Assembly (NCBI GenBank): GCA_030699355.1
Contig: JAUYMZ010000407.1
Coordinates: 1 to 38,424, forward strand
Length of the DNA stretch: 38,424 bases
Source of the DNA: Bacteroidota bacterium
GTDB lineage: Bacteria; Bacteroidota; Bacteroidia; UKL13-3
Direction: 5' to 3'
Both the position numbers and the translations under genes were made by a program. This document shows, piece by piece, positions 7,091 to 28,708 of this stretch; position 1 is the first letter of the stretch, and each line of letters starts with the position of its first letter. The notes under the pieces were generated by a model. It saw only the letters and a program-made list of their open reading frames with translations, was not told the origin of the DNA and ran no database searches.

Positions 7091-8503
7091 ATGAATGAAG
7101 CAAGCAAAATAGCCGATGAACATTTTAGGGATGAATTAGGCAATGTAGATAAAAAGGGTAAACGTTTATGGATTTTCCCTAAAAAACCGAAAGGGCAATT
7201 CTACAATTATAGAACTTGGTTTAGCTGGTTTTTAATGGTATTAATGTTTAGTGGTCCCTTTTTAAAATTTGAGGGTAAGCCGCTTCTTTTATTAAATGTT
7301 TTAGAAAGAAAGTTTATCGTTTTTGGAATGGTTTTTTGGCCGCAAGACCTCAATCTGTTCGCTATTCTAATGCTTTCTTTTGTGCTGTTTATTGTTTTAT
7401 TTACAGTTCTTTTTGGCCGGGTTTGGTGCGGTTGGGCCTGCCCTCAAACCATATTTATGGAAATGCTCTTTCGTAAAATTGAGTATTTTATTGATGGCGA
7501 TTATATCCAACAAAAAAAGTTGGCTAACCAAGATTGGAACACAGAAAAAATAACCAAACGTGCCATTAAACATATTTTGTTTTGGATTTTATCTTTTGTA
7601 ATTGCCAACACATTTTTAGGATATATTATTGGCATAGACCAACTCAAATTATTAGTAACCGACGGGCTTTTTGCGCATGTAGGTAAACTTACTTCTTTGT
7701 TGATTTTTACTACTGTTTTCTATTTTGTTTTTGCCCACCTGCGCGAATTGGTGTGTATTTTCATCTGCCCTTATGGTCGCTTACAAGGACTCATGCTCGA
7801 TAAAAATTCGATGGTGGTGGCTTACGATTTTGTACGTGGCGAACCCCGCGGAAAAATGAAAAAAGAGGAGGTAAATACCCATGGCGATTGCATAGATTGT
7901 AAATTGTGTGTGAACGTTTGTCCTACCGGCATCGATATCAGAAATGGTACTCAATTAGAATGTATTAATTGCACCGCTTGTATTGATGCCTGCGATGAAG
8001 TAATGCTTAAAATTGAAAAGCCAAAAGGGCTTATTCGTTTTGCTTCTTTAAATAATATTACAGAGGGTAAAAAGCTCGGTTTGAACCTAAGAAATGGTGC
8101 TTATACCGTTGTATTGATGGGCTTGTTGAGTGTGTTCTTTTATATGCTAATTACCAGAAAACAGATTGAAACAACGCTGCTAAGAACGCCCGGAATGTTG
8201 TTTCAAAAACAAGCAGATGGTAAAATTAGCAACCTGTACAGCATTGAGTTTGTAAATAAAACTTTTGATGAACTTCCTATAGAATTAAAATTGATTGAAC
8301 CCAAAGGTGAAATAAAATTGATTGATGGCGAAAAAGTAATAGTGCACAAAGAAAGTATTGGTAAAACTTCATTCTTTTTAGTGCGAGATGCCAAAGAAAT
8401 TACTAAAATTGCAACACCGGTAGTTATTGAGGTTTCGAGTAATGGAAAGTTAATAGAAACCATGAAATCTTCTTTTAATGGGCCGGTAACACAAGGAGAA
8501 TAA
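7091..8503 (+). CDS. ccoG: cbb3 accessory 4Fe-4S protein CcoG/FixG
   Basis: GRVWCGWACPQT, CPYGRLQ, CIDCKLCVNVCPTGIDIR and CINCTACIDAC. ATG 7091 is preferred because the GTG at 7037 lies in the hairpin. Confidence 0.95.
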   Translation: MNEASKIADEHFRDELGNVDKKGKRLWIFPKKPKGQFYNYRTWFSWFLMVLMFSGPFLKFEGKPLLLLNVLERKFIVFGMVFWPQDLNLFAILMLSFVLFIVLFTVLFGRVWCGWACPQTIFMEMLFRKIEYFIDGDYIQQKKLANQDWNTEKITKRAIKHILFWILSFVIANTFLGYIIGIDQLKLLVTDGLFAHVGKLTSLLIFTTVFYFVFAHLRELVCIFICPYGRLQGLMLDKNSMVVAYDFVRGEPRGKMKKEEVNTHGDCIDCKLCVNVCPTGIDIRNGTQLECINCTACIDACDEVMLKIEKPKGLIRFASLNNITEGKKLGLNLRNGAYTVVLMGLLSVFFYMLITRKQIETTLLRTPGMLFQKQADGKISNLYSIEFVNKTFDELPIELKLIEPKGEIKLIDGEKVIVHKESIGKTSFFLVRDAKEITKIATPVVIEVSSNGKLIETMKSSFNGPVTQGE

Positions 8504-8508
8504 AAAGT

Positions 8509-8928
8509 ATGAAATTAAATTGGGGTGGCAAATTGTTCATTTTTGCACTTATGTTTATGATTTTTGTAGTAAGCATGGTGGTGGTAATCTCTAAACAAGA
8601 TATGCCTTTGGTAGAACAAGATTATTATGAGCGTGGGCAGAATTATCAAAAGGAAATAGATAACAATGCCAATATGGATACCACTGTTCAAATGAATGTT
8701 GTTGGAAATACACTGGAAGTTTATGCTTCAGCATCTATACCTAATGCTAAGATTAAATTTTATCGTCCGTCTAATTCAGAGCTAGATAAAAACTTTTCAA
8801 CTCAATTAATGGGGGGTAAAAAAGAAGTATACGATTTATCGAACCTAGATAAAGGAAAATGGGTGCTCTCTGTTGTTTGGATGCGGGCAGACAAGGAATA
8901 TAAATTAACGCGCGACTTCGAACGTTAA
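8509..8928 (+). CDS. ccoH: FixH/CcoH-family protein
   Basis: MKLNWG, a TM helix, LVEQDYYE and FYRPSN..LD; follows ccoG. Confidence 0.88.
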   Translation: MKLNWGGKLFIFALMFMIFVVSMVVVISKQDMPLVEQDYYERGQNYQKEIDNNANMDTTVQMNVVGNTLEVYASASIPNAKIKFYRPSNSELDKNFSTQLMGGKKEVYDLSNLDKGKWVLSVVWMRADKEYKLTRDFER

Positions 8929-22316: not shown

Positions 22317-24311
22317 TCAAAAGGATTGTTTCCCATAAAACCGATGCATACTTATGATGTGCGGGATGCTGAGGCAAGATAACAGGATGAAAAAGATACC
22401 TAGGTAAATTTCTTGGTAATAGCTTGTAAATAGGGCTATAATTATAGCACCACCTAGGCTAAAGGGCAGTGATTGAAGCCATAGGATTTTTGGTTTTATG
22501 TGGAGTTCTTGTTTTAAATGACTCCAACCATGTAAGCTGTGCTGAAATATAAAGTAAATTCCAAAAGTGATAAGCAAGGGTAAAAAACTAGCCAACAAAA
22601 GATAGCTTAAGGTTAATGCCATTTGCTTTGATTTATACAAATAGATATAGGCTGAACCTATTCCTATAAAAGCGGTTTTGATGATCCATAGGCCGCTTGC
22701 TGATACCTCTGCTAATACCTCATTTGTTTTTAATAAGCTAATATGTTTTAATATCATCTTGGTTTCTTCGAAGTGGCCTGTTAGCATCACCATTAAAATG
22801 GTAAAACCCCACAGAAATGTTTGGGTCGACCCAACCAACCCCCATTCTTTAAAATCTGCTTGTCCGAAATGCCACGCCGAATAAAAGATAAATAGGAGTA
22901 GGGCAAAGTCGGGAATAAGGTACCAAAGCACACCAATGCCCGCTGCTTTAGATAAATACTTTATAATAAATGGCAATAGAAAGTACTTGCTTGCTGGTTT
23001 TTTGCTGGTAAGATGATCGAGGGCACCGTGGGTTAAACCAATAAACAAAAAGCCAAGCGCTAAGATACCCCAACTTAATATTTCGAAATGGAGTGCTTGT
23101 AGGAGGATGGCCAAGCAGGTGGCGATGCTTGCTATGCTTACCGGAGCTATTTTCCTGGCTAAGAAAGCAATATCTTTAAGGGCAAATTGTAAGAACAGCA
23201 AGATGGGTAAACGACAAAATATTTTTAATTCTTGCGCCATTGTGGTTCTCTCGTTTAAAAAGGATAATACCCTTTTAGTTTCTATGGCAGTAAATAATTG
23301 GGTAAAAATTACCTTTCCTTTTTCTGGTTTTAATTCTAATATTTTTAAAAGCAATCTATCGTAAAAGGCAAATCTTTTTGCTTTGGGTTTTTCGGCCAAA
23401 GGCTGATTTTGGGCAATGGATTGGCTTAACTCGTTTGCATGAATGGCCATTGCGTGAAAGGCGTAGCCTGTAGTTGGTTTAATTAAATTGGCTTTAGCGC
23501 CAGTGAATATCCAATTAGGGTGAATTTGTTTATGGGTAAGGCTGGCCGACGACATAGGAATAATGCCTTTTTCTGATTCTATAACGCGGTAGGATAAACC
23601 TTTTTTTTGGAGTTGCTCTTTTAAAATTAACTCGGCTTGTGCTTGGGTAATAGGTTCAGACCCAAAACAAGTTACCTCAAACAATGCGTGATTTTTGGAG
23701 AAAGGCAGCACATACAAAAATTGGCAACTGTTGTTTTGCGGGATATCAAAATCCATCATTGTAACGGCTTTGTTATCTATTTCTCCCGCTATAATTTCTA
23801 CTTCCAAACCATAGAAGGATTGGTATAAATGACTTTCGTTTTTTTGTGGCGCTTGGTACTTTGTTAGGCTGCTATCAAATACTTTTTTGGCAATGATGCT
23901 TGTGTTATCCAAAGTGAGTTGGAACGAGTTATCAATCACTTCTAATTTACCATCAAAAGAGGTTTCAAAATAGGTATGATTAATTTGAGGTAAAACAGAT
24001 TTAACCTCATTGTAAACATCAATACCTCTTATGTGTAAATAGCTCAAAGGAGAAATGGTTTCAAGGTTTTTACCAACCCTAATTTCATCCCATTGATACT
24101 TTACTAAGTGTTGAAGATTTAGTTTTTCGAGTTCATATTTATCCGACCAAAAGCAGAATGTTCTGTCGTTTACGTTTTTCTTTTGGGGTTCTATGATGGC
24201 TATTTGTTTATGGGCAAATAGATTTTTCTTAAACATGTTTAATAGCAACAAGCTATTGGCTGCTCCCAATCCAATGAATAGGTAATCAACTTTGTATAAC
24301 TTGTTTGCCAT
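22317..24311 (-). CDS. crtY-blh: Fused lycopene beta-cyclase (CrtY) / Brp-Blh beta-carotene 15,15'-dioxygenase
   Basis: aa 1-~380: GLGAA Rossmann motif, DRTFCFW, MMDF, FLYVLPFS..ALFE, EKGIIPM, KPTTGYAF and RFAFYDRLLL. aa ~390-664: polytopic, with GLTHGALDH, SAWHFGQAD, QHS and LSIPH. Single open frame. Confidence 0.9.
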   Translation of the reverse strand: MANKLYKVDYLFIGLGAANSLLLLNMFKKNLFAHKQIAIIEPQKKNVNDRTFCFWSDKYELEKLNLQHLVKYQWDEIRVGKNLETISPLSYLHIRGIDVYNEVKSVLPQINHTYFETSFDGKLEVIDNSFQLTLDNTSIIAKKVFDSSLTKYQAPQKNESHLYQSFYGLEVEIIAGEIDNKAVTMMDFDIPQNNSCQFLYVLPFSKNHALFEVTCFGSEPITQAQAELILKEQLQKKGLSYRVIESEKGIIPMSSASLTHKQIHPNWIFTGAKANLIKPTTGYAFHAMAIHANELSQSIAQNQPLAEKPKAKRFAFYDRLLLKILELKPEKGKVIFTQLFTAIETKRVLSFLNERTTMAQELKIFCRLPILLFLQFALKDIAFLARKIAPVSIASIATCLAILLQALHFEILSWGILALGFLFIGLTHGALDHLTSKKPASKYFLLPFIIKYLSKAAGIGVLWYLIPDFALLLFIFYSAWHFGQADFKEWGLVGSTQTFLWGFTILMVMLTGHFEETKMILKHISLLKTNEVLAEVSASGLWIIKTAFIGIGSAYIYLYKSKQMALTLSYLLLASFLPLLITFGIYFIFQHSLHGWSHLKQELHIKPKILWLQSLPFSLGGAIIIALFTSYYQEIYLGIFFILLSCLSIPHIISMHRFYGKQSF

Positions 24312-24325
24312 GTTTTAGGTAATAA

Positions 24326-24359
24326 AATAGGGATATACTTGTGAAAATATATCCCTATT
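24326..24359 (-). terminator. Hairpin between the rhodopsin gene and crtY-blh
   Basis: 12-bp perfect inverted repeat AATAGGGATATA / TATATCCCTATT with a 10-nt loop and a U-rich tail on the minus strand. Confidence 0.6.
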
Positions 24360-24373
24360 CATATTTGTAAAAA

Positions 24374-25093
24374 TTAGTCCTCAGCGTTTCTACTTAAAGT
24401 GTAAATAACTAAACCAAAACCAATTTTGTTGATGGCATCAGCGATGTTGTATACGATGTCCATAGCATGAGTTGCTGCGGCAGGGTCGCTTACCAATTGA
24501 ATACCGAATAATCCACCTGGGGTTCCAAGGATATAACCTAAAGGATAAATAGCCCAACCAACCAATACGAACCAAGCCAATACTCTTGTAGCTTTTGCTA
24601 CTTGTACGCCAGCTGATTGAGATAGTTTTGCAACTTCACCAAACCAGATTAAGTAAACGATGTAGAAATAAGCGGCACCTGAGATAACACCCCAGAGAAC
24701 ACTGTTTTCTCTGTCGATAGTTTCACCAAAATAACCTGTTACCAACATCACTAAAGAAGCGGCGATAAGTTTCCACAATAATCCAATTTTAGCGCCGGCT
24801 TTCTTGGTAATTAAGTAGAATTCAACACACATCAAAGGTACAGTAAGAATCCAATCTACGTATCTAAAGAATGTTGGCGAATCGCCCGTTGCGAGGTTGT
24901 AGCCTCTCATGTAATAGTAATGTACAGCAGCAATAAAGGTAATTAAACCTGATACTAAAACTGAAGTACGCCATTTTTGAGGAGTGTTACCTAGCTCAAA
25001 AAAGAAGAAAACAGACGCGGCCATCATGGCCATTGTTCCGATAAAAAATGTGAATGCCACATAATTATCGCTAGCGATTTTTAAATGTTCCAT
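24374..25093 (-). CDS. Proteorhodopsin (DTE proton pump, Met at the spectral-tuning site, so green-absorbing type)
   Basis: 7-TM protein. RYVDWILTVPLMCVE gives R77, D80, T84, M88 and E91; also H58 and helix G DAINKIGFG (D219, retinal-binding K223). Confidence 0.96.
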   Translation of the reverse strand: MEHLKIASDNYVAFTFFIGTMAMMAASVFFFFELGNTPQKWRTSVLVSGLITFIAAVHYYYMRGYNLATGDSPTFFRYVDWILTVPLMCVEFYLITKKAGAKIGLLWKLIAASLVMLVTGYFGETIDRENSVLWGVISGAAYFYIVYLIWFGEVAKLSQSAGVQVAKATRVLAWFVLVGWAIYPLGYILGTPGGLFGIQLVSDPAAATHAMDIVYNIADAINKIGFGLVIYTLSRNAED

Positions 25094-25310: not shown

Positions 25311-26774
25311 TCACTTAAAGCACAAGTTTTGCAATTGAGTGAAGGTTTGAGAATCGGCGAGGTTATATGATTTCCAGGAGTAATTTTTCTTTTCGTCGCT
25401 TAAAACATGGTAAAAAATTTGGGCTTCTAAGCGGCACATTTCTGCGCTTTCACCACTAGATTTATTGGTTTCATACCAATAGGAGGCAAGAGCGGGGTAG
25501 GCCGAGTAAGATAATTTGTAGAGATATTTGGTATCGGCTATTTTATTGGTTTGAAGCGAATAATTGATGTGATGTTGGGCAATGTGTTTGTCCCAATTTA
25601 TGGTGCTGGCGCCTATCAAAAGTGTATACCAAATAAAAGAATTGGTTCGAACCAAAAAGTAGTTGCTGCGTTGGTATTGAATTTTATAAAATGTAAGGAA
25701 TAAACCAATGATTGAGCAGGCCAGAAAAAAGTAAACACCAATGCGTTTGTAGGTATATAATTCTGTTTCGTGGATGTACAAATAGTTTCTGTAAGCAGCG
25801 GTTAAAATTAACCAGACATTTAGGGCAATCCAAATATAGCTGAGTGTTTTTGTATGCGAATTTTGGTTAAAATTTTGGCTGCCTCTAAATACCCACAAGA
25901 TAATGGAAACGGCAAGAATGATAGACCAAATGAGCGCGTCTACACCTTGGTGAACATATTCAGAATAGCTAAGTCCTTGAGGCATTATTTGATTGGATAG
26001 GTGGTAGGTATCTATTAGGTTTACGAGCAGCAATAATAGGTTCAAGCCGAAAAATATTATTTTGGCCATAAATTGTTCGGTTGTTTCTGTTATGGCAATT
26101 CCAAGAATAGCGTAAGATTTGTATGCTGATTTAGCCAGATAATTTCCCAATTTTGATTCGCTTTGGGCAAGTTTGTTTAGGATATAAGGTTTGAAAAAAG
26201 TACTTAGTAGAAAAACGCCAAATAGGTAGTGAATGATAAGGGGTAGGGAGATAAATTCTGTGTTTAAATTTTTAATGAATTGGTCGAAGCCTGCGCTCAT
26301 ATTTCTATATATGGCAAAGAAAATTATAAAAATGAGGGCACTAAAAATTCCAGCAAATTTGTAATTGATATTTTTCTCGGTAGGTATTTCATCTTGGTTT
26401 GTTTGTTGGGCTGTTTTATTAAACATGGCAATAAATTTTATGAAAGGTGTGCTAATCCAAGCATACAATGCATGCAGCAGATTGCTGATTAAATTTTGAT
26501 TTTCTACCACAAGGTTGATGGAGAGCATAAGCAGGGCAGTAATGTTGGCAAGTATGGATAAAAAGTGCCCGTGGAGGAGCGCGGCTGTGGAAGAGAGCAG
26601 GGCGGCAGCACTAAAAATTAGATTGGATTTAAGGAGCATTTTTTGCGGATGAATCCAGCATTGGAGGCCAATGAGGATGATATTTAAAAGCAAAATGTTT
26701 ACCCCAATTCCTTCTTGGTAAATTAAAAATGTGTAGGCTATGCCTGCTGCTAAACTGATTTTGTTGGTTTTCAT
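25311..26774 (-). CDS. DUF4173/DUF4153-family polytopic membrane protein
   Basis: YSEYVHQGV, RNYLYI, TYKRIGV and YLYKLS motifs. ATG 26774 is preferred because 26810 lies inside the operator. Confidence 0.8.
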   Translation of the reverse strand: MKTNKISLAAGIAYTFLIYQEGIGVNILLLNIILIGLQCWIHPQKMLLKSNLIFSAAALLSSTAALLHGHFLSILANITALLMLSINLVVENQNLISNLLHALYAWISTPFIKFIAMFNKTAQQTNQDEIPTEKNINYKFAGIFSALIFIIFFAIYRNMSAGFDQFIKNLNTEFISLPLIIHYLFGVFLLSTFFKPYILNKLAQSESKLGNYLAKSAYKSYAILGIAITETTEQFMAKIIFFGLNLLLLLVNLIDTYHLSNQIMPQGLSYSEYVHQGVDALIWSIILAVSIILWVFRGSQNFNQNSHTKTLSYIWIALNVWLILTAAYRNYLYIHETELYTYKRIGVYFFLACSIIGLFLTFYKIQYQRSNYFLVRTNSFIWYTLLIGASTINWDKHIAQHHINYSLQTNKIADTKYLYKLSYSAYPALASYWYETNKSSGESAEMCRLEAQIFYHVLSDEKKNYSWKSYNLADSQTFTQLQNLCFK

Positions 26775-26790
26775 TTTTTTTGTATTATTT

Positions 26791-26813
26791 AAAAGTGCTT
26801 TGAGTTTCAAAGT
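26791..26813. promoter_or_regulatory. Palindromic operator upstream of the DUF4173 gene
   Basis: AAAAGTG-CTTTG-AGTTT-CAAAG; a second copy lies at 27787-27808. Confidence 0.7.
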
Positions 26814-26834
26814 AAATGGGTAAAAAAATATAGT

Positions 26835-27134
26835 TTATGATTTCAGTAATTTTTCGAGGGCATTTAGGTGAACTTTAAATTCGGCCTTACCCAGTTTGCT
26901 TGCCTCAAAAACGGTATGTGGTTTTTTGCCAATAAAGTTTTTATGAACCAGCACATATTCGAGTTTTTCGAGGGCACTAATATGACTGGCTAAATTGCCA
27001 TCTGTAAGATTTAGAAGCTCTTTCATGGTATTAAAATCTACCTGGTCGTTTACCATTAGCACCGACATGATTCCGAGGCGAATTCGGCTTTCGAAGGCCT
27101 TATTTAATTGCGCTATGTTAAAAGAATTTGCCAA
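26835..27134 (-). CDS. Winged-helix transcriptional regulator (ArsR/MarR-like, HTH_34 type)
   Basis: LNKAFESRIRLGIMSVL, LTDGNLASH, K.FIGKKP and HLNALE. The probable TTG start at 27134 avoids overlap with the upstream gene. Confidence 0.88.
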   Translation of the reverse strand: MANSFNIAQLNKAFESRIRLGIMSVLMVNDQVDFNTMKELLNLTDGNLASHISALEKLEYVLVHKNFIGKKPHTVFEASKLGKAEFKVHLNALEKLLKS

Positions 27135-27142
27135 AATACTGC

Positions 27143-27784
27143 TTATTTTTTTTCGAAAGTAAAATAGGCGATGGTGCCATAAATAATATGAACTAAACCA
27201 AAACCCAATGCCCAAAATAGGAGTCCGTGGTTTATAAAAACAGCGGCAAGTAAGCCAAGGCTAATCTGAACCAAACCCAGGTATTTAATATGCTCAAAAG
27301 TATATTTACTGGCATTTACAAGAGCTAGTCCGTAAAACACCAAAGTAGCAGGAGCCACCATTCCGGTATATCCTTGAACTACCATAATAAGGCAAAACAT
27401 ACCGCCTGTTGCCAAGGGAATAGCCATATTGTACATGAGTTGTTTACCAGAGTTTGTCCAAACTTTTTCGCCCGCTTTTCTTGCTTTTTTAACAGTGAGG
27501 TAAGTTGAGGTAAAAAGCGATAATACCAAAACCGATAAGGCGTCTATTAAGAAGAAGGTAACAAAGGGCATATTCATTTCTCCTTTTTCGTTTTTAGCAT
27601 ATTCAAAGTAGGGCAAATTGCCATGTTTGGTTTGTAAATAAAGATAGGCAGCTGCTGCACCCGCCAATGCAAATAATCCAACAAAAACACCCGACAGGCC
27701 ATTTAATGATAAAAAACGAGATGAGCGTTCCATCATTTTGCGGATGTCGTGGAGGGCTTCTAATTGTTCTTCGGTATTCGACAT
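27143..27784 (-). CDS. Conserved hypothetical membrane protein (partner of the wHTH regulator)
   Basis: IRKMMERSSRFLSLNGLSG, FYGLALVNASKYT and WALGFGLVHIIYG; about 6 TM helices. Confidence 0.82.
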   Translation of the reverse strand: MSNTEEQLEALHDIRKMMERSSRFLSLNGLSGVFVGLFALAGAAAAYLYLQTKHGNLPYFEYAKNEKGEMNMPFVTFFLIDALSVLVLSLFTSTYLTVKKARKAGEKVWTNSGKQLMYNMAIPLATGGMFCLIMVVQGYTGMVAPATLVFYGLALVNASKYTFEHIKYLGLVQISLGLLAAVFINHGLLFWALGFGLVHIIYGTIAYFTFEKK

Positions 27785-28186: not shown

Positions 28187-28708
28187 ATGAGTAAAAAGAA
28201 TGAGCTTCTAATTCAAGAGCGAATTACAAAGGCTATTTATGTAATTCGGGGGCAAAAAGTAATGATAGATAGTGAATTGGCTGAAATGTATGAGGTTGAA
28301 ACGAAAGTTTTAAATCAGGCAGTAAAAAGAAATATTTCACGCTTTCCTGAAGATTTTATGTTTCAATTGTCCATAGAAGAATGGGAAAACTTGAGGTCGC
28401 AATTTGCGACCACAAGTTGGGGAGGTAGAAGAACACCTCCATATATGTTCACCGAACAAGGTGTTGCCATGCTTTCATCTGTGCTAAATAGTCAAATAGC
28501 TATTCAAGTAAATATCTCAATTATGCGGGTATTTGTGAATATGCGGCAATGGGCTAGCAATTATGAAGAACTGGTTAAGAAAATTGATGAAATAAACCTA
28601 ACCCAAGGGGAGCATAATGAACATATACGTAATATCTATCAAATTATCGAAGATTTGGTTCAGCCATCATTTACAGAAAGGAAGCCAATTGGATTTAAAA
28701 GAGCATAA
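28187..28708 (+). CDS. ORF6N-domain DNA-binding protein
   Basis: IYVIRGQKVMID..LAEMYEV, LNQAVKRN..RFPEDFMFQL, PYMFTEQGVAMLSSVL and RKPIGF. Confidence 0.92.
   Translation: MSKKNELLIQERITKAIYVIRGQKVMIDSELAEMYEVETKVLNQAVKRNISRFPEDFMFQLSIEEWENLRSQFATTSWGGRRTPPYMFTEQGVAMLSSVLNSQIAIQVNISIMRVFVNMRQWASNYEELVKKIDEINLTQGEHNEHIRNIYQIIEDLVQPSFTERKPIGFKRA

What the first reader, a model, noticed from the sequence alone, without database searches (positions are those of the whole stretch)
22317..24311. Single-polypeptide lycopene-to-retinal enzyme: CrtY cyclase fused to Blh dioxygenase
Seen: one 664-aa frame holds a complete soluble FAD-dependent CrtY-type cyclase (with the presumed catalytic Glu in ALFE212) joined near 23150-23170 to a complete membrane Blh with four His-containing motifs. 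There is no stop or residual Met at the junction. Known: CrtY makes beta-carotene and Blh cleaves it to retinal; they are normally separate genes. Inference: the fusion tethers the cyclase to the membrane and channels beta-carotene to retinal, away from hydroxylases and from the monocyclic (myxol/flexixanthin-type) pigment pathways of many Bacteroidota. I know of no biochemical characterisation, though homologous fusions may exist in databases.
Basis: partly seen in the sequence, partly recalled or inferred. Interest (0 to 1): 0.85.

Follow-up and report, generated by a model that had tools for sequence, protein, structure and literature searches.

The report
Fused lycopene cyclase–retinal-forming dioxygenase beside proteorhodopsin
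One gene joins the enzyme that makes beta-carotene to the enzyme that cuts it into retinal, directly behind a light-driven proton pump; the join is real and common in uncultured freshwater Bacteroidota but seems never to have been studied.

Summary
It encodes 664 aa. Pfam finds Lycopene_cycl at residues 9-371 and BCD/Blh at 420-655, both far above cut-off.

The join is not an artefact:
- Contigs from two other studies cross it without gaps.
- All 120 listed database homologues carry both domains.
- All 80 fetched genome loci hold one open frame across both halves.

The fusion is head-to-tail with essentially no linker, at about residues 382-385. On a CrtY-domain tree the fused forms sit on one side of a branch. 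Their sister is a split rhodopsin-crtY-blh operon whose crtY stop overlaps the blh start.

A DTE-type proteorhodopsin lies directly upstream, followed by a terminator-like hairpin that recurs in related loci. The genome also holds a second cyclase (CrtYcd type), a CrtZ-like hydroxylase, CrtD and CruF on other contigs. This points to a separate, probably monocyclic, pigment branch.

Best reading: a dedicated, membrane-anchored retinal branch for the neighbouring rhodopsin. Substrate channelling is untested. Ten literature searches found no description of this fusion. I rate it a new variant of a known kind, of moderate interest.

The parts
22317..24311 (-). crtY-blh fusion ORF, 664 aa plus stop
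   Evidence: ORF and translation; both Pfam domains; AlphaFold2 model, mean pLDDT 91.3, pTM 0.82.
23160..24311 (-). CrtY-type FAD-dependent lycopene cyclase half, residues 1 to about 384. Its last helix (370-385) is hydrophobic.
   Evidence: Pfam PF05834 at 9-371. G14/G16 and E212 are invariant. Foldseek's best PDB matches are geranylgeranyl reductases and p-hydroxybenzoate-hydroxylase-type flavoproteins. Unfused CrtY end at projected residue 384 (median). Helix 370-385 packs on residues 156-158 and 316-338 of this half.
23157..23168 (-). Fusion junction, residues about 382-385. No linker: a four-residue turn (RKIA, 386-389) leads into the first Blh membrane helix.
   Evidence: projected ends of 24 unfused CrtY and 13 unfused Blh; helices 370-385 and 390-406; contigs of two other studies cross it without gaps.
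22320..23159 (-). [quoted passage not shown] It is a bundle of about nine to ten membrane helices.
   Evidence: PF15461 at 420-655. TIGR03753 scores 121.1 against cut-off 95.25. H428, H481, H591 and H651 are invariant. Helices and hydropathy.
23667..23669 (-). Codon 215, TGT (Cys). Arg stands here in at least 90% of 132 fusions. Related strains read CGT.
   Evidence: A to G at 23669 in runs X3 and X4. Arg in 37 of 38 fused rows, but mostly V or L (19 of 24) in unfused CrtY, so the residue is specific to the fused clade.
24321..24365 (-). Terminator-like hairpin with a T-rich tail, between the rhodopsin stop and the fusion start. About 10 nt separate it from the ATG.
   Evidence: window fold -18.5 kcal/mol; window z = -7.3 against 500 shuffles. 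An equivalent hairpin has z <= -3 in 48 of 58 related loci and is present in the split sister operon L093. The simple terminator scan did not flag it.
24374..25093 (-). Proteorhodopsin-type proton pump, 239 aa, directly upstream on the same strand
   Evidence: PF01036, 143.9 bits. The sequence shows D..T..E in RYVDWILTVPLMCVE and a Lys in DAINKIG. Reading these as the DTE motif and the Schiff-base Lys is from recall.

Best explanation
This is a genuine bifunctional gene. An N-terminal, cytoplasm-facing, FAD-type lycopene beta-cyclase (CrtY) is joined without a linker to a C-terminal membrane-embedded Blh dioxygenase.

Origin: it arose by loss of the stop/start overlap in a rhodopsin-crtY-blh operon.

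Proposed mechanism:
1. The cyclase closes the ring(s) of lycopene, or the second ring of gamma-carotene, at the membrane surface.
2. The attached Blh cuts the resulting beta-carotene at the 15,15' bond into two retinals.
3. The retinal loads the proteorhodopsin encoded immediately upstream.

The host's pigment branch uses a different cyclase (CrtYcd type) together with CrtZ, CrtD and CruF, so this gene is a dedicated retinal branch. It is probably expressed at a low level by read-through of the hairpin behind the rhodopsin gene.

What is shown: the architecture, its conservation, its origin and the gene context. What is inferred: both activities, the topology, the low expression, and any benefit of the fusion (fixed 1:1 stoichiometry, co-localisation, possible channelling).
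For: Identity of the two halves:
- Both Pfam domains score far above cut-off. The Blh half also passes NCBIfam TIGR03753.
- The family-wide core is kept. G14, G16, E212, E247 and D318 stand in all 38 fused rows; E212, E247 and D318 also in all 24 unfused CrtY rows, and G14/G16 in 21 of 24 (the other three are gaps). H428, H481, H591 and H651 stand in all 38 fused and 14 unfused Blh rows.
- A 2026 preprint (passages read) places His-21/78/188/256 of the characterised Blh in one plane as the likely iron site. The order and spacing match the four His here (spacings 53, 110, 60 against 57, 110, 68; my mapping).

The fusion is real:
- All 120 listed homologues, at 43-100% identity, carry both domains.
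- All 80 genome loci give a single match; in the 73 not cut short by a contig end the open frame is 645-720 codons.
- Contigs from other studies cross the junction without gaps.
- The AlphaFold2 model is confident as a whole (pLDDT 91.3, pTM 0.82).

Origin:
- In a tree of 62 CrtY domains the 38 fused rows lie on one side of a branch (SH-aLRT 98).
- Their sister (SH-aLRT 99) is the split operon L093, where the crtY stop and blh start overlap in TGATG.

Link to rhodopsin:
- A rhodopsin lies upstream on the same strand in 59 of 80 loci. Five more have one elsewhere in the locus. Seven of the 16 without one have little or no upstream DNA.
- G099 and G171, whose fusion has no rhodopsin nearby, carry a rhodopsin on another contig.

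Second pathway:
- The fusion is the genome's only PF05834 hit above cut-off and its only BCD hit.
- Elsewhere the genome holds a CrtYcd-type cyclase next to a CrtZ-like hydroxylase, a CrtD equivalog (658 bits, cut-off 500), a CrtID equivalog (727.2 bits, cut-off 640), crtB and idi, and a CruF-family hit.
- All 5 other genomes checked that have a rhodopsin-linked CrtY also have a CrtYcd-type cyclase.
- Klassen 2010 (passages read) calls the single-peptide Bacteroidetes CrtYcd of Algoriphagus a monocyclase.
- The preprint reports that Blh does not cleave lycopene, cleaves gamma-carotene into retinal plus an acyclic analogue, and cleaves zeaxanthin poorly. A bicyclase placed beside Blh would therefore double the yield of true retinal.

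Domain boundary: complex prediction on the halves cut at 368/369 scored 0.66, with the best of 3 controls at 0.00. That mark was reached by 58 of 80 solved complexes and 2 of 110 mismatched pairs. The runs agreed in 100% of contacts and the partner's pLDDT was at least 79. The confident contacts involve only residues 369-384 of the partner. This shows that helix 370-385 belongs to the cyclase fold. It does not show that the cyclase docks on the Blh bundle.
Against: - No activity was measured.
- The cyclase half is divergent: 93.8 bits against a cut-off of 209.5 for TIGR01790, and 57.5 against 215.2 for the CrtY equivalog.
- This allele has Cys where 37 of 38 fused relatives have Arg. Related strains read Arg, so this copy could be impaired.
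- No confident contact between the cyclase and the Blh helix bundle proper was predicted, so there is no structural support for a closed channel.
- Split crtY/blh operons persist in related lineages, including the genus that also holds fused G171. The fusion is therefore not required for function.
- The CruF-family match has one TAA inside the matched stretch; I did not examine this.
- That the host CrtYcd is a monocyclase is inferred from another organism.
Confidence: 0.8

Rival explanations
1. The fusion brings no kinetic benefit. It is a near-neutral result of losing the one-base stop/start overlap between two translationally coupled genes, and is kept only because co-expression was already 1:1. 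There is no channelling.
For: - The sister operon and 13 other genomes keep crtY and blh as adjacent separate genes, some with overlaps of a few bases.
- In G208 the two are in frame, separated only by TGA TTC.
- No cyclase-to-Blh-bundle interface was predicted with confidence.
Against: - The fused state is kept across a clade that has diverged to 35-36% identity, with no reversion among the 38 sampled rows.
- The junction has no linker, and R215, H513 and H598 are conserved only in the fused clade, which hints at co-adaptation.
Confidence: 0.3
2. The cyclase-like half no longer cyclises lycopene. It serves Blh as a flavin-binding accessory or membrane scaffold, or acts on another substrate, and beta-carotene comes from the CrtYcd-type cyclase.
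For: - The cyclase half scores below both NCBIfam lycopene-cyclase cut-offs.
- A second cyclase is present in this genome and in 5 of 5 others checked.
- This allele carries R215C.
Against: - All family-wide invariant residues of 24 unfused CrtY, including E212, are kept in 38 of 38 fused rows.
- Pfam score is 148 bits over nearly the whole model, positions 1-373 of 380.
- The unfused sister gene is an ordinary crtY in a rhodopsin-crtY-blh operon.
Confidence: 0.1
3. The long frame is an assembly or sequencing artefact that joins two separate genes.
For: The genome is a fragmented assembly of 478 contigs. The run holding 0.94 of the sampled words covers the gene only in four short contigs.
Against: - Contigs of two other studies span the junction without gaps.
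- All 80 genome loci and all 120 listed proteins from many sources have the same continuous architecture.
Confidence: 0.01

Closest known systems
Separate crtY and blh genes of proteorhodopsin photosystem operons, including the Bacteroidota rhodopsin-crtY-blh operons found here (L093, L097, L098)
   Same: Same two enzyme families in the same order (crtY then blh), with the same link to a rhodopsin. A terminator-like hairpin follows the rhodopsin in L093. Rhodopsin-blh adjacency in marine Flavobacteriia is in print (PMC5932025, passages read).
   Different: In those operons there are two polypeptides, with overlaps of a few bases (1-nt TGATG in L093 when read from its ATG). Here there is one polypeptide with no linker.
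Thecamonas trahens CrtI-CrtB-CrtYc/d-Blh four-domain protein (Rius et al. 2023, PMC10016063; passages read)
   Same: A natural fusion that places a lycopene cyclase directly before a Blh domain.
   Different: It is eukaryotic and has four domains. Its cyclase is the unrelated membrane CrtYc/d type, not the soluble FAD-type CrtY.
Other natural carotenoid-enzyme fusions: fungal CrtYB, thraustochytrid CrtIBY, verrucomicrobial CrtIB (PMC10284914, passages read)
   Same: Consecutive pathway enzymes joined in one chain. The CrtIB case also sits in a rhodopsin gene cluster.
   Different: Different enzyme pairs. That paper's list of known natural fusions does not include CrtY-Blh.
Characterised stand-alone Blh of uncultured marine bacterium 66A03 (Kim et al. 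2009, as described in the 2026 preprint)
   Same: Four His in the same order and similar spacing, and a bundle of about nine membrane helices.
   Different: The fused clade has extra conserved His (H513, H598) that are absent from most unfused Blh, plus the N-terminal cyclase.

Membership tests
CrtY/CrtL-type FAD-dependent lycopene cyclase (Pfam PF05834) | Match to the family profile above its curated cut-off | tested here: met
   148.3 bits against 23.4, model positions 1-373 of 380.
CrtY/CrtL-type FAD-dependent lycopene cyclase (NCBIfam TIGR01790, TIGR01789) | Score above NCBI's subfamily and equivalog cut-offs | tested here: not met
   93.8 against 209.5, and 57.5 against 215.2. This is a divergent member, so I do not file it as an equivalog of CrtY.
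CrtY/CrtL-type FAD-dependent lycopene cyclase | N-terminal dinucleotide-binding Gly motif and flavoprotein fold | tested here: met
   G14 and G16 are invariant in 132 of 132 fusions. The best PDB fold matches are geranylgeranyl reductases and PHBH-type flavoproteins (E down to 1e-11, target TM 0.5-0.57).
CrtY/CrtL-type FAD-dependent lycopene cyclase | Conserved acidic residue in the L-x-E-x-T motif (its catalytic role in plant cyclases is recalled, not from a call) | tested here: met
   E212 is present in 38 of 38 fused and 24 of 24 unfused CrtY rows.
CrtY/CrtL-type FAD-dependent lycopene cyclase | Converts lycopene to beta-carotene | not testable with these tools
   Needs expression in a lycopene-producing host.
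[quoted passage not shown] | Match above curated cut-offs | tested here: met
   PF15461: 103.7 against 28. TIGR03753: 121.1 against 95.25.
[quoted passage not shown] | Four conserved His proposed as iron ligands | tested here: met
   H428, H481, H591 and H651 are invariant in 132 of 132 fusions and 14 of 14 unfused Blh. Their correspondence to His-21/78/188/256 is inferred from order and spacing.
[quoted passage not shown] | Multi-pass helical membrane protein | tested here: met
   The model shows helices from 390 to 660, with hydrophobic stretches. The preprint reports nine helices for the reference Blh.
[quoted passage not shown] | Cleaves beta-carotene to retinal | not testable with these tools
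   Needs an assay.
Proteorhodopsin-type proton pump (the neighbouring gene) | Bac_rhodopsin profile match, carboxylate donor/acceptor motif and retinal-binding Lys | tested here: met
   PF01036, 143.9 bits. D, T and E in RYVDWILTVPLMCVE and K in DAINKIG are read. The meaning of the motif is recalled.

The most novel reading that the evidence does not exclude
The zero-linker fusion is a true 'retinal synthase'. It takes lycopene or gamma-carotene out of a monocyclic pigment pathway and passes beta-carotene from the cyclase to the Blh cavity without release. This would shield beta-carotene from CrtZ and prevent formation of acyclic retinal analogues. On this reading the single invention let proteorhodopsin phototrophy spread through freshwater Bacteroidota whose own carotenoid pathway does not make beta-carotene.
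Probability: 0.3. Interest if true: 0.6.

Novelty: new variant of a known kind. Interest (0 to 1): 0.45.

Why it matters
Retinal supply limits rhodopsin phototrophy. This gene would turn lycopene into the chromophore in a single polypeptide, in a host whose main carotenoid pathway probably bypasses beta-carotene.

Nature also supplies the comparison needed to test it. Fused and split versions of the same operon exist in sister lineages. They allow a direct test of whether fusing consecutive membrane-pathway enzymes gives channelling, a question that metabolic engineers currently address with artificial fusions.

The gene is also a compact part for microbial retinal production and for rhodopsin-based tools.

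It is not a new enzyme chemistry, and databases already hold hundreds of copies.

Tried and rejected
Literature. Ten searches used crtY, blh, lycopene cyclase, Brp/Blh, fused/fusion, rhodopsin and Bacteroidota family names.
- None turned up a description of a bacterial CrtY-Blh fusion.
- The exact phrases 'blh fused', 'fused to blh', 'fused with blh', 'blh fusion' and 'crtY-blh' had zero occurrences in the papers listed. One search listed 25 of 59 hits, and all 25 matched only the fungal 'bifunctional lycopene cyclase'.
- Only open-access papers and bioRxiv are searched, and supplements are closed. Klassen's Table S2 of fusion proteins and the supplements of Rius et al. could mention the fusion.
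- I read passages only, not whole papers.

Tools that gave nothing usable:
- No RNA holder was listed for the stretch, so nothing can be said about expression.
- The consensus terminator scan did not flag the hairpin behind the rhodopsin. I attribute this to its loop limit of 8. The fold draws a 4-nt loop by adding A-U/G-U pairs, while the uninterrupted 12-bp arms leave 10 nt between them. RNA folding against shuffles did find the hairpin. Those were mononucleotide shuffles, a weaker control than dinucleotide ones.
- Foldseek against PDB listed only flavoproteins matching the N-terminal half; none of the listed titles is a Blh-type protein. The preprint states that no Blh structure is solved.

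Complex prediction passed, but its interface is the cyclase's own last helix, because I cut at 368/369, inside that fold. I reject it as evidence that the cyclase docks on the Blh bundle.

Ideas considered and dropped:
- R215C as a knock-out of a catalytic residue. Arg215 is specific to the fused clade; unfused CrtY mostly have V or L there.
- Recent horizontal spread as the reason the rhodopsin is so similar between loci. Third-codon positions are only about 44% identical, which points to old divergence under strong purifying selection.

The 'starts at query pos 385' lines result from how I cut the query and carry no information. One search gives the real projection.
Full report
**Observation.**
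The frame at 22317-24311 is open only on the minus strand and encodes 664 aa. Pfam finds Lycopene_cycl at residues 9-371 (148.3 bits, cut-off 23.4) and BCD, the Brp/Blh dioxygenase family, at 420-655 (103.7 bits, cut-off 28). NCBIfam confirms the Blh half (TIGR03753, 121.1 against 95.25). It places the cyclase half well under its lycopene-cyclase cut-offs (TIGR01790, 93.8 against 209.5; TIGR01789, 57.5 against 215.2). The cyclase half is therefore a divergent family member.

**The join is real.**
Logan contigs of four public runs were laid on 22317-25093.
- Run X3 (another study) has a 1424-base contig covering 22375-23798, with 27 substitutions and no gaps.
- Run X4 (a third study) has a 2243-base contig covering 22330-24572, with 65 substitutions and no gaps.
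- No insertion or deletion was reported in any run.
- X1 holds 0.94 of the sampled words and may be the source sample. It covers the gene in four short contigs, one of which (23135-23388) crosses the junction.

A word-seeded search of 5.8 billion proteins gave 463 hits among the 8000 candidates scored. All 120 listed hits carry both Pfam domains, are 643-751 aa long, and are 43-100% identical to the query. Sources name them 'lycopene beta-cyclase' or 'Brp/Blh family ... /lycopene cyclase-like protein'.

A scan of one genome per species found 502 loci encoding a relative. The best 80 were kept. All 80 give a single tblastn match in one open frame; in the 73 not cut short by a contig end that frame is 645-720 codons. 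By their record titles they are almost all metagenome-assembled Bacteroidota: Chitinophagaceae, Sphingobacteriales, Flavobacteriales including Vicingaceae and Crocinitomicaceae, Saprospirales and Cytophagales. A few bins carry labels from other phyla. How many of the other 422 loci are fused was not examined.

**Anatomy.**
An alignment of 132 fusions has these invariant positions:
- Cyclase half: G14, G16, C53, W55, E212, E247 and D318.
- Blh half: H428, H481, H513, H591 and H651.

I compared 38 fused rows with unfused relatives: 24 CrtY and 14 Blh taken from other Bacteroidota genomes.
- The cyclase core, including E212, is shared by all 24 unfused CrtY.
- Exactly four His (428, 481, 591, 651) are shared by all 14 unfused Blh.
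- H513, H598 and R215 are conserved only in the fused clade.

A 2026 preprint on Blh (passages read) reports that His-21, 78, 188 and 256 lie in one plane in the predicted structure of the characterised enzyme, which has nine membrane helices. The order and spacing agree with the four His here.

AlphaFold2 with the 132-row alignment gives mean pLDDT 91.3 and pTM 0.82. The model has a mixed alpha/beta domain up to about residue 385, followed by helices from 390 to 660. Foldseek matches the first domain to geranylgeranyl reductases and p-hydroxybenzoate-hydroxylase-type flavoproteins.

**The junction.**
Projecting the ends of unfused proteins onto the query places CrtY C-termini at residue 384 (median; range 378-401; n=24). 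It places Blh N-termini at residue 382 (median; range 378-385; n=13). The two are therefore joined head to tail with no linker, at window 23157-23168.

I ran complex prediction on the halves cut at 368/369.
- Score 0.66; best of 3 controls 0.00.
- That mark was reached by 58 of 80 solved complexes and 2 of 110 mismatched pairs.
- The runs agreed in 100% of contacts, and the partner's pLDDT was at least 79.
- All confident contacts on the partner side are residues 369-384, against 156-158 and 316-338 of the cyclase.

This shows that hydrophobic helix 370-385 is the last helix of the cyclase fold. I had cut inside that fold. It is not evidence that the cyclase docks on the Blh bundle. After that helix come four residues (RKIA) and then the first Blh membrane helix. 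The two positive charges in this turn fit a cytoplasmic location, which a flavin-dependent cyclase needs; that topology is inferred.

**Origin.**
A profile of 29 fusions was searched in 401 Bacteroidota genomes, including the window's own.
- 124 of 401 genomes had a match.
- Only three had an uninterrupted full-length match: G000, G099 and G171.
- Most matches are separate crtY genes of about 360-420 codons.
- 14 genomes have crtY followed directly by blh as separate genes.
- In L093, L097 and L098 the order is rhodopsin, crtY, blh on one strand, with called crtY/blh overlaps of 4, 14 and 14 bases.
- In L093 the crtY stop and the blh ATG overlap in TGATG. In L096 the genes are in frame, separated by TGA TTC.

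I built a quick maximum-likelihood tree of 62 CrtY domains. The rows were:
- 36 of the 132 rows of A2, namely the first four and then every fourth;
- the two fused genes from G099 and G171;
- 14 adjacent-split CrtY;
- 10 solitary CrtY.

All 38 fused rows fall on one side of a branch (SH-aLRT 98). L093's CrtY is their sister (SH-aLRT 99). The root is unknown, the method was the quick one, and five long branches were flagged, including both L094 and L095. A single origin from such an operon is therefore supported but not proven.

**Context in the window.**
The gene directly upstream on the same strand (24374-25093) is a 239-aa rhodopsin (PF01036, 143.9 bits). It has D, T and E in RYVDWILTVPLMCVE and a Lys in DAINKIG. 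By recall this is the proton-pumping proteorhodopsin pattern.

The 62-base spacer folds into a long hairpin followed by a T-rich tail (-18.5 kcal/mol; z -7.3 against 500 shuffles). About ten bases remain before the ATG of the fusion.

Among the 80 related loci:
- 59 have a rhodopsin upstream on the same strand, and 5 more have one elsewhere in the locus.
- 7 of the 16 without one have little or no upstream DNA.
- Of 58 spacers folded, 48 have z <= -3 against mononucleotide shuffles.
- Of the ten others, five show the hairpin within a longer spacer. In the other five my start-codon call cut the spacer short, and in at least two of these (L024, L080) the first arm is recognisable.
- The stem sequences differ between loci while the structure recurs.
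- The split sister operon L093 has the hairpin too.

I infer strong rhodopsin expression with weak read-through into the enzyme gene. No RNA data were available.

**Context in the genome.**
The assembly has 478 contigs and is estimated 97.3% complete. The fusion is its only PF05834 match above cut-off and its only BCD match. Other contigs hold:
- a CrtI/CrtID-type desaturase (NF058655, 727.2 against 640), a phytoene synthase, an IPP isomerase, and a CrtD equivalog (NF042421, 658 against 500);
- a 228-aa CrtYcd-type cyclase (two PF18916 repeats) next to a 157-aa fatty-acid-hydroxylase-family protein that I take to be CrtZ-like;
- a CruF-family match (PF04240, 83.7 bits, with one TAA inside the matched stretch; not examined).

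CrtD and CruF act on an acyclic end (established knowledge, recalled). Klassen 2010 describes the single-peptide CrtYcd of Algoriphagus as a monocyclase. The host's pigments are therefore probably monocyclic, and beta-carotene is probably not a normal intermediate.

The preprint reports how Blh treats other carotenoids:
- It does not cleave lycopene.
- It cleaves gamma-carotene to one retinal plus one acyclic analogue.
- It handles zeaxanthin poorly.

A bicyclase tied to Blh would thus raise the yield and purity of retinal. All five other genomes checked that have a rhodopsin-linked CrtY (fused G099 and G171; split G311, G387 and G235) also carry a CrtYcd-type cyclase and a rhodopsin.

**Caveat on this allele.**
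Codon 215 is TGT, Cys. 37 of 38 fused rows have Arg there, and the 95-99% identical strains in runs X3 and X4 read G at 23669, which gives Arg. In X1 one contig ends at 23668, which may mark a variant site. Arg215 is not conserved in unfused CrtY, so the effect of the substitution is unknown.

**Comparison and novelty.**
The enzymes, their order and their link to rhodopsin are textbook. What differs is the single polypeptide.

Natural carotenoid-enzyme fusions in print include CrtYB, CrtIBY and CrtIB (PMC10284914), and the eukaryotic CrtI-CrtB-CrtYc/d-Blh of Thecamonas (PMC10016063). That last cyclase type is unrelated to the one here.

Ten searches of the open literature found no description of a bacterial CrtY-Blh fusion. 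Supplements could not be read. Databases already hold hundreds of copies with automatic names.

I rate it a new variant of a known kind. It is of moderate interest, mainly as a natural fused-versus-split pair for testing channelling and as a compact retinal-synthesis part.

Noticed in passing
window 24312-24373 (-); loci L013-L092 and L093: A terminator-like hairpin with a T-run follows the rhodopsin stop codon in the window, in 48 of 58 related spacers (z <= -3), and in the split sister operon. The stem sequences differ but the structure recurs. In the window it leaves only about 10 nt before the next start codon.
   Followed up: partly
window 24374-25093 against loci L013-L092: The rhodopsin is far more conserved than the enzyme beside it. 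Over 60 loci, median identity is 91% for the rhodopsin and 43% for the fusion. Third-codon positions of the rhodopsin are only about 44% identical, which indicates old divergence under very strong purifying selection rather than recent transfer.
   Followed up: partly
window 23667-23669 (-): Cys215 (TGT) stands where 37 of 38 fused relatives have Arg. Runs X3 and X4 read G at 23669, giving Arg. A contig of the near-identical run X1 ends at 23668, which may mark a polymorphic site.
   Followed up: partly
L096 (G208:C45), junction near 2913-2917: crtY and blh are in the same frame, separated only by TGA TTC before the ATG, so one substitution would fuse them. This CrtY lies far from the fused clade on the tree, so a second, independent fusion would be easy.
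   Followed up: partly
L009 (G000:C82) 7205-7696 (+): A 163-aa ORF between the phytoene synthase and the IPP isomerase matches no Pfam or NCBIfam family. It may be an unrecognised carotenoid-pathway protein.
   Followed up: no
window 25311-27215 (-): Upstream of the rhodopsin lie a 499-aa DUF4153 membrane protein and a 126-aa winged-helix HTH_34 protein on the same strand. Whether they regulate the rhodopsin unit was not examined.
   Followed up: no
window 28187-28708 (+): A 173-aa ORF6N / phage Rha-like regulatory domain protein sits about 3 kb from the rhodopsin. It is a possible remnant of a mobile element.
   Followed up: no
L009 (G000:C82) 439-774 and 8283-8630: PemK/MazF-like and HigB-like toxin-antitoxin toxin genes flank the crtD / TonB-receptor / crtI-crtB-idi cluster on its short contig.
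   Followed up: no
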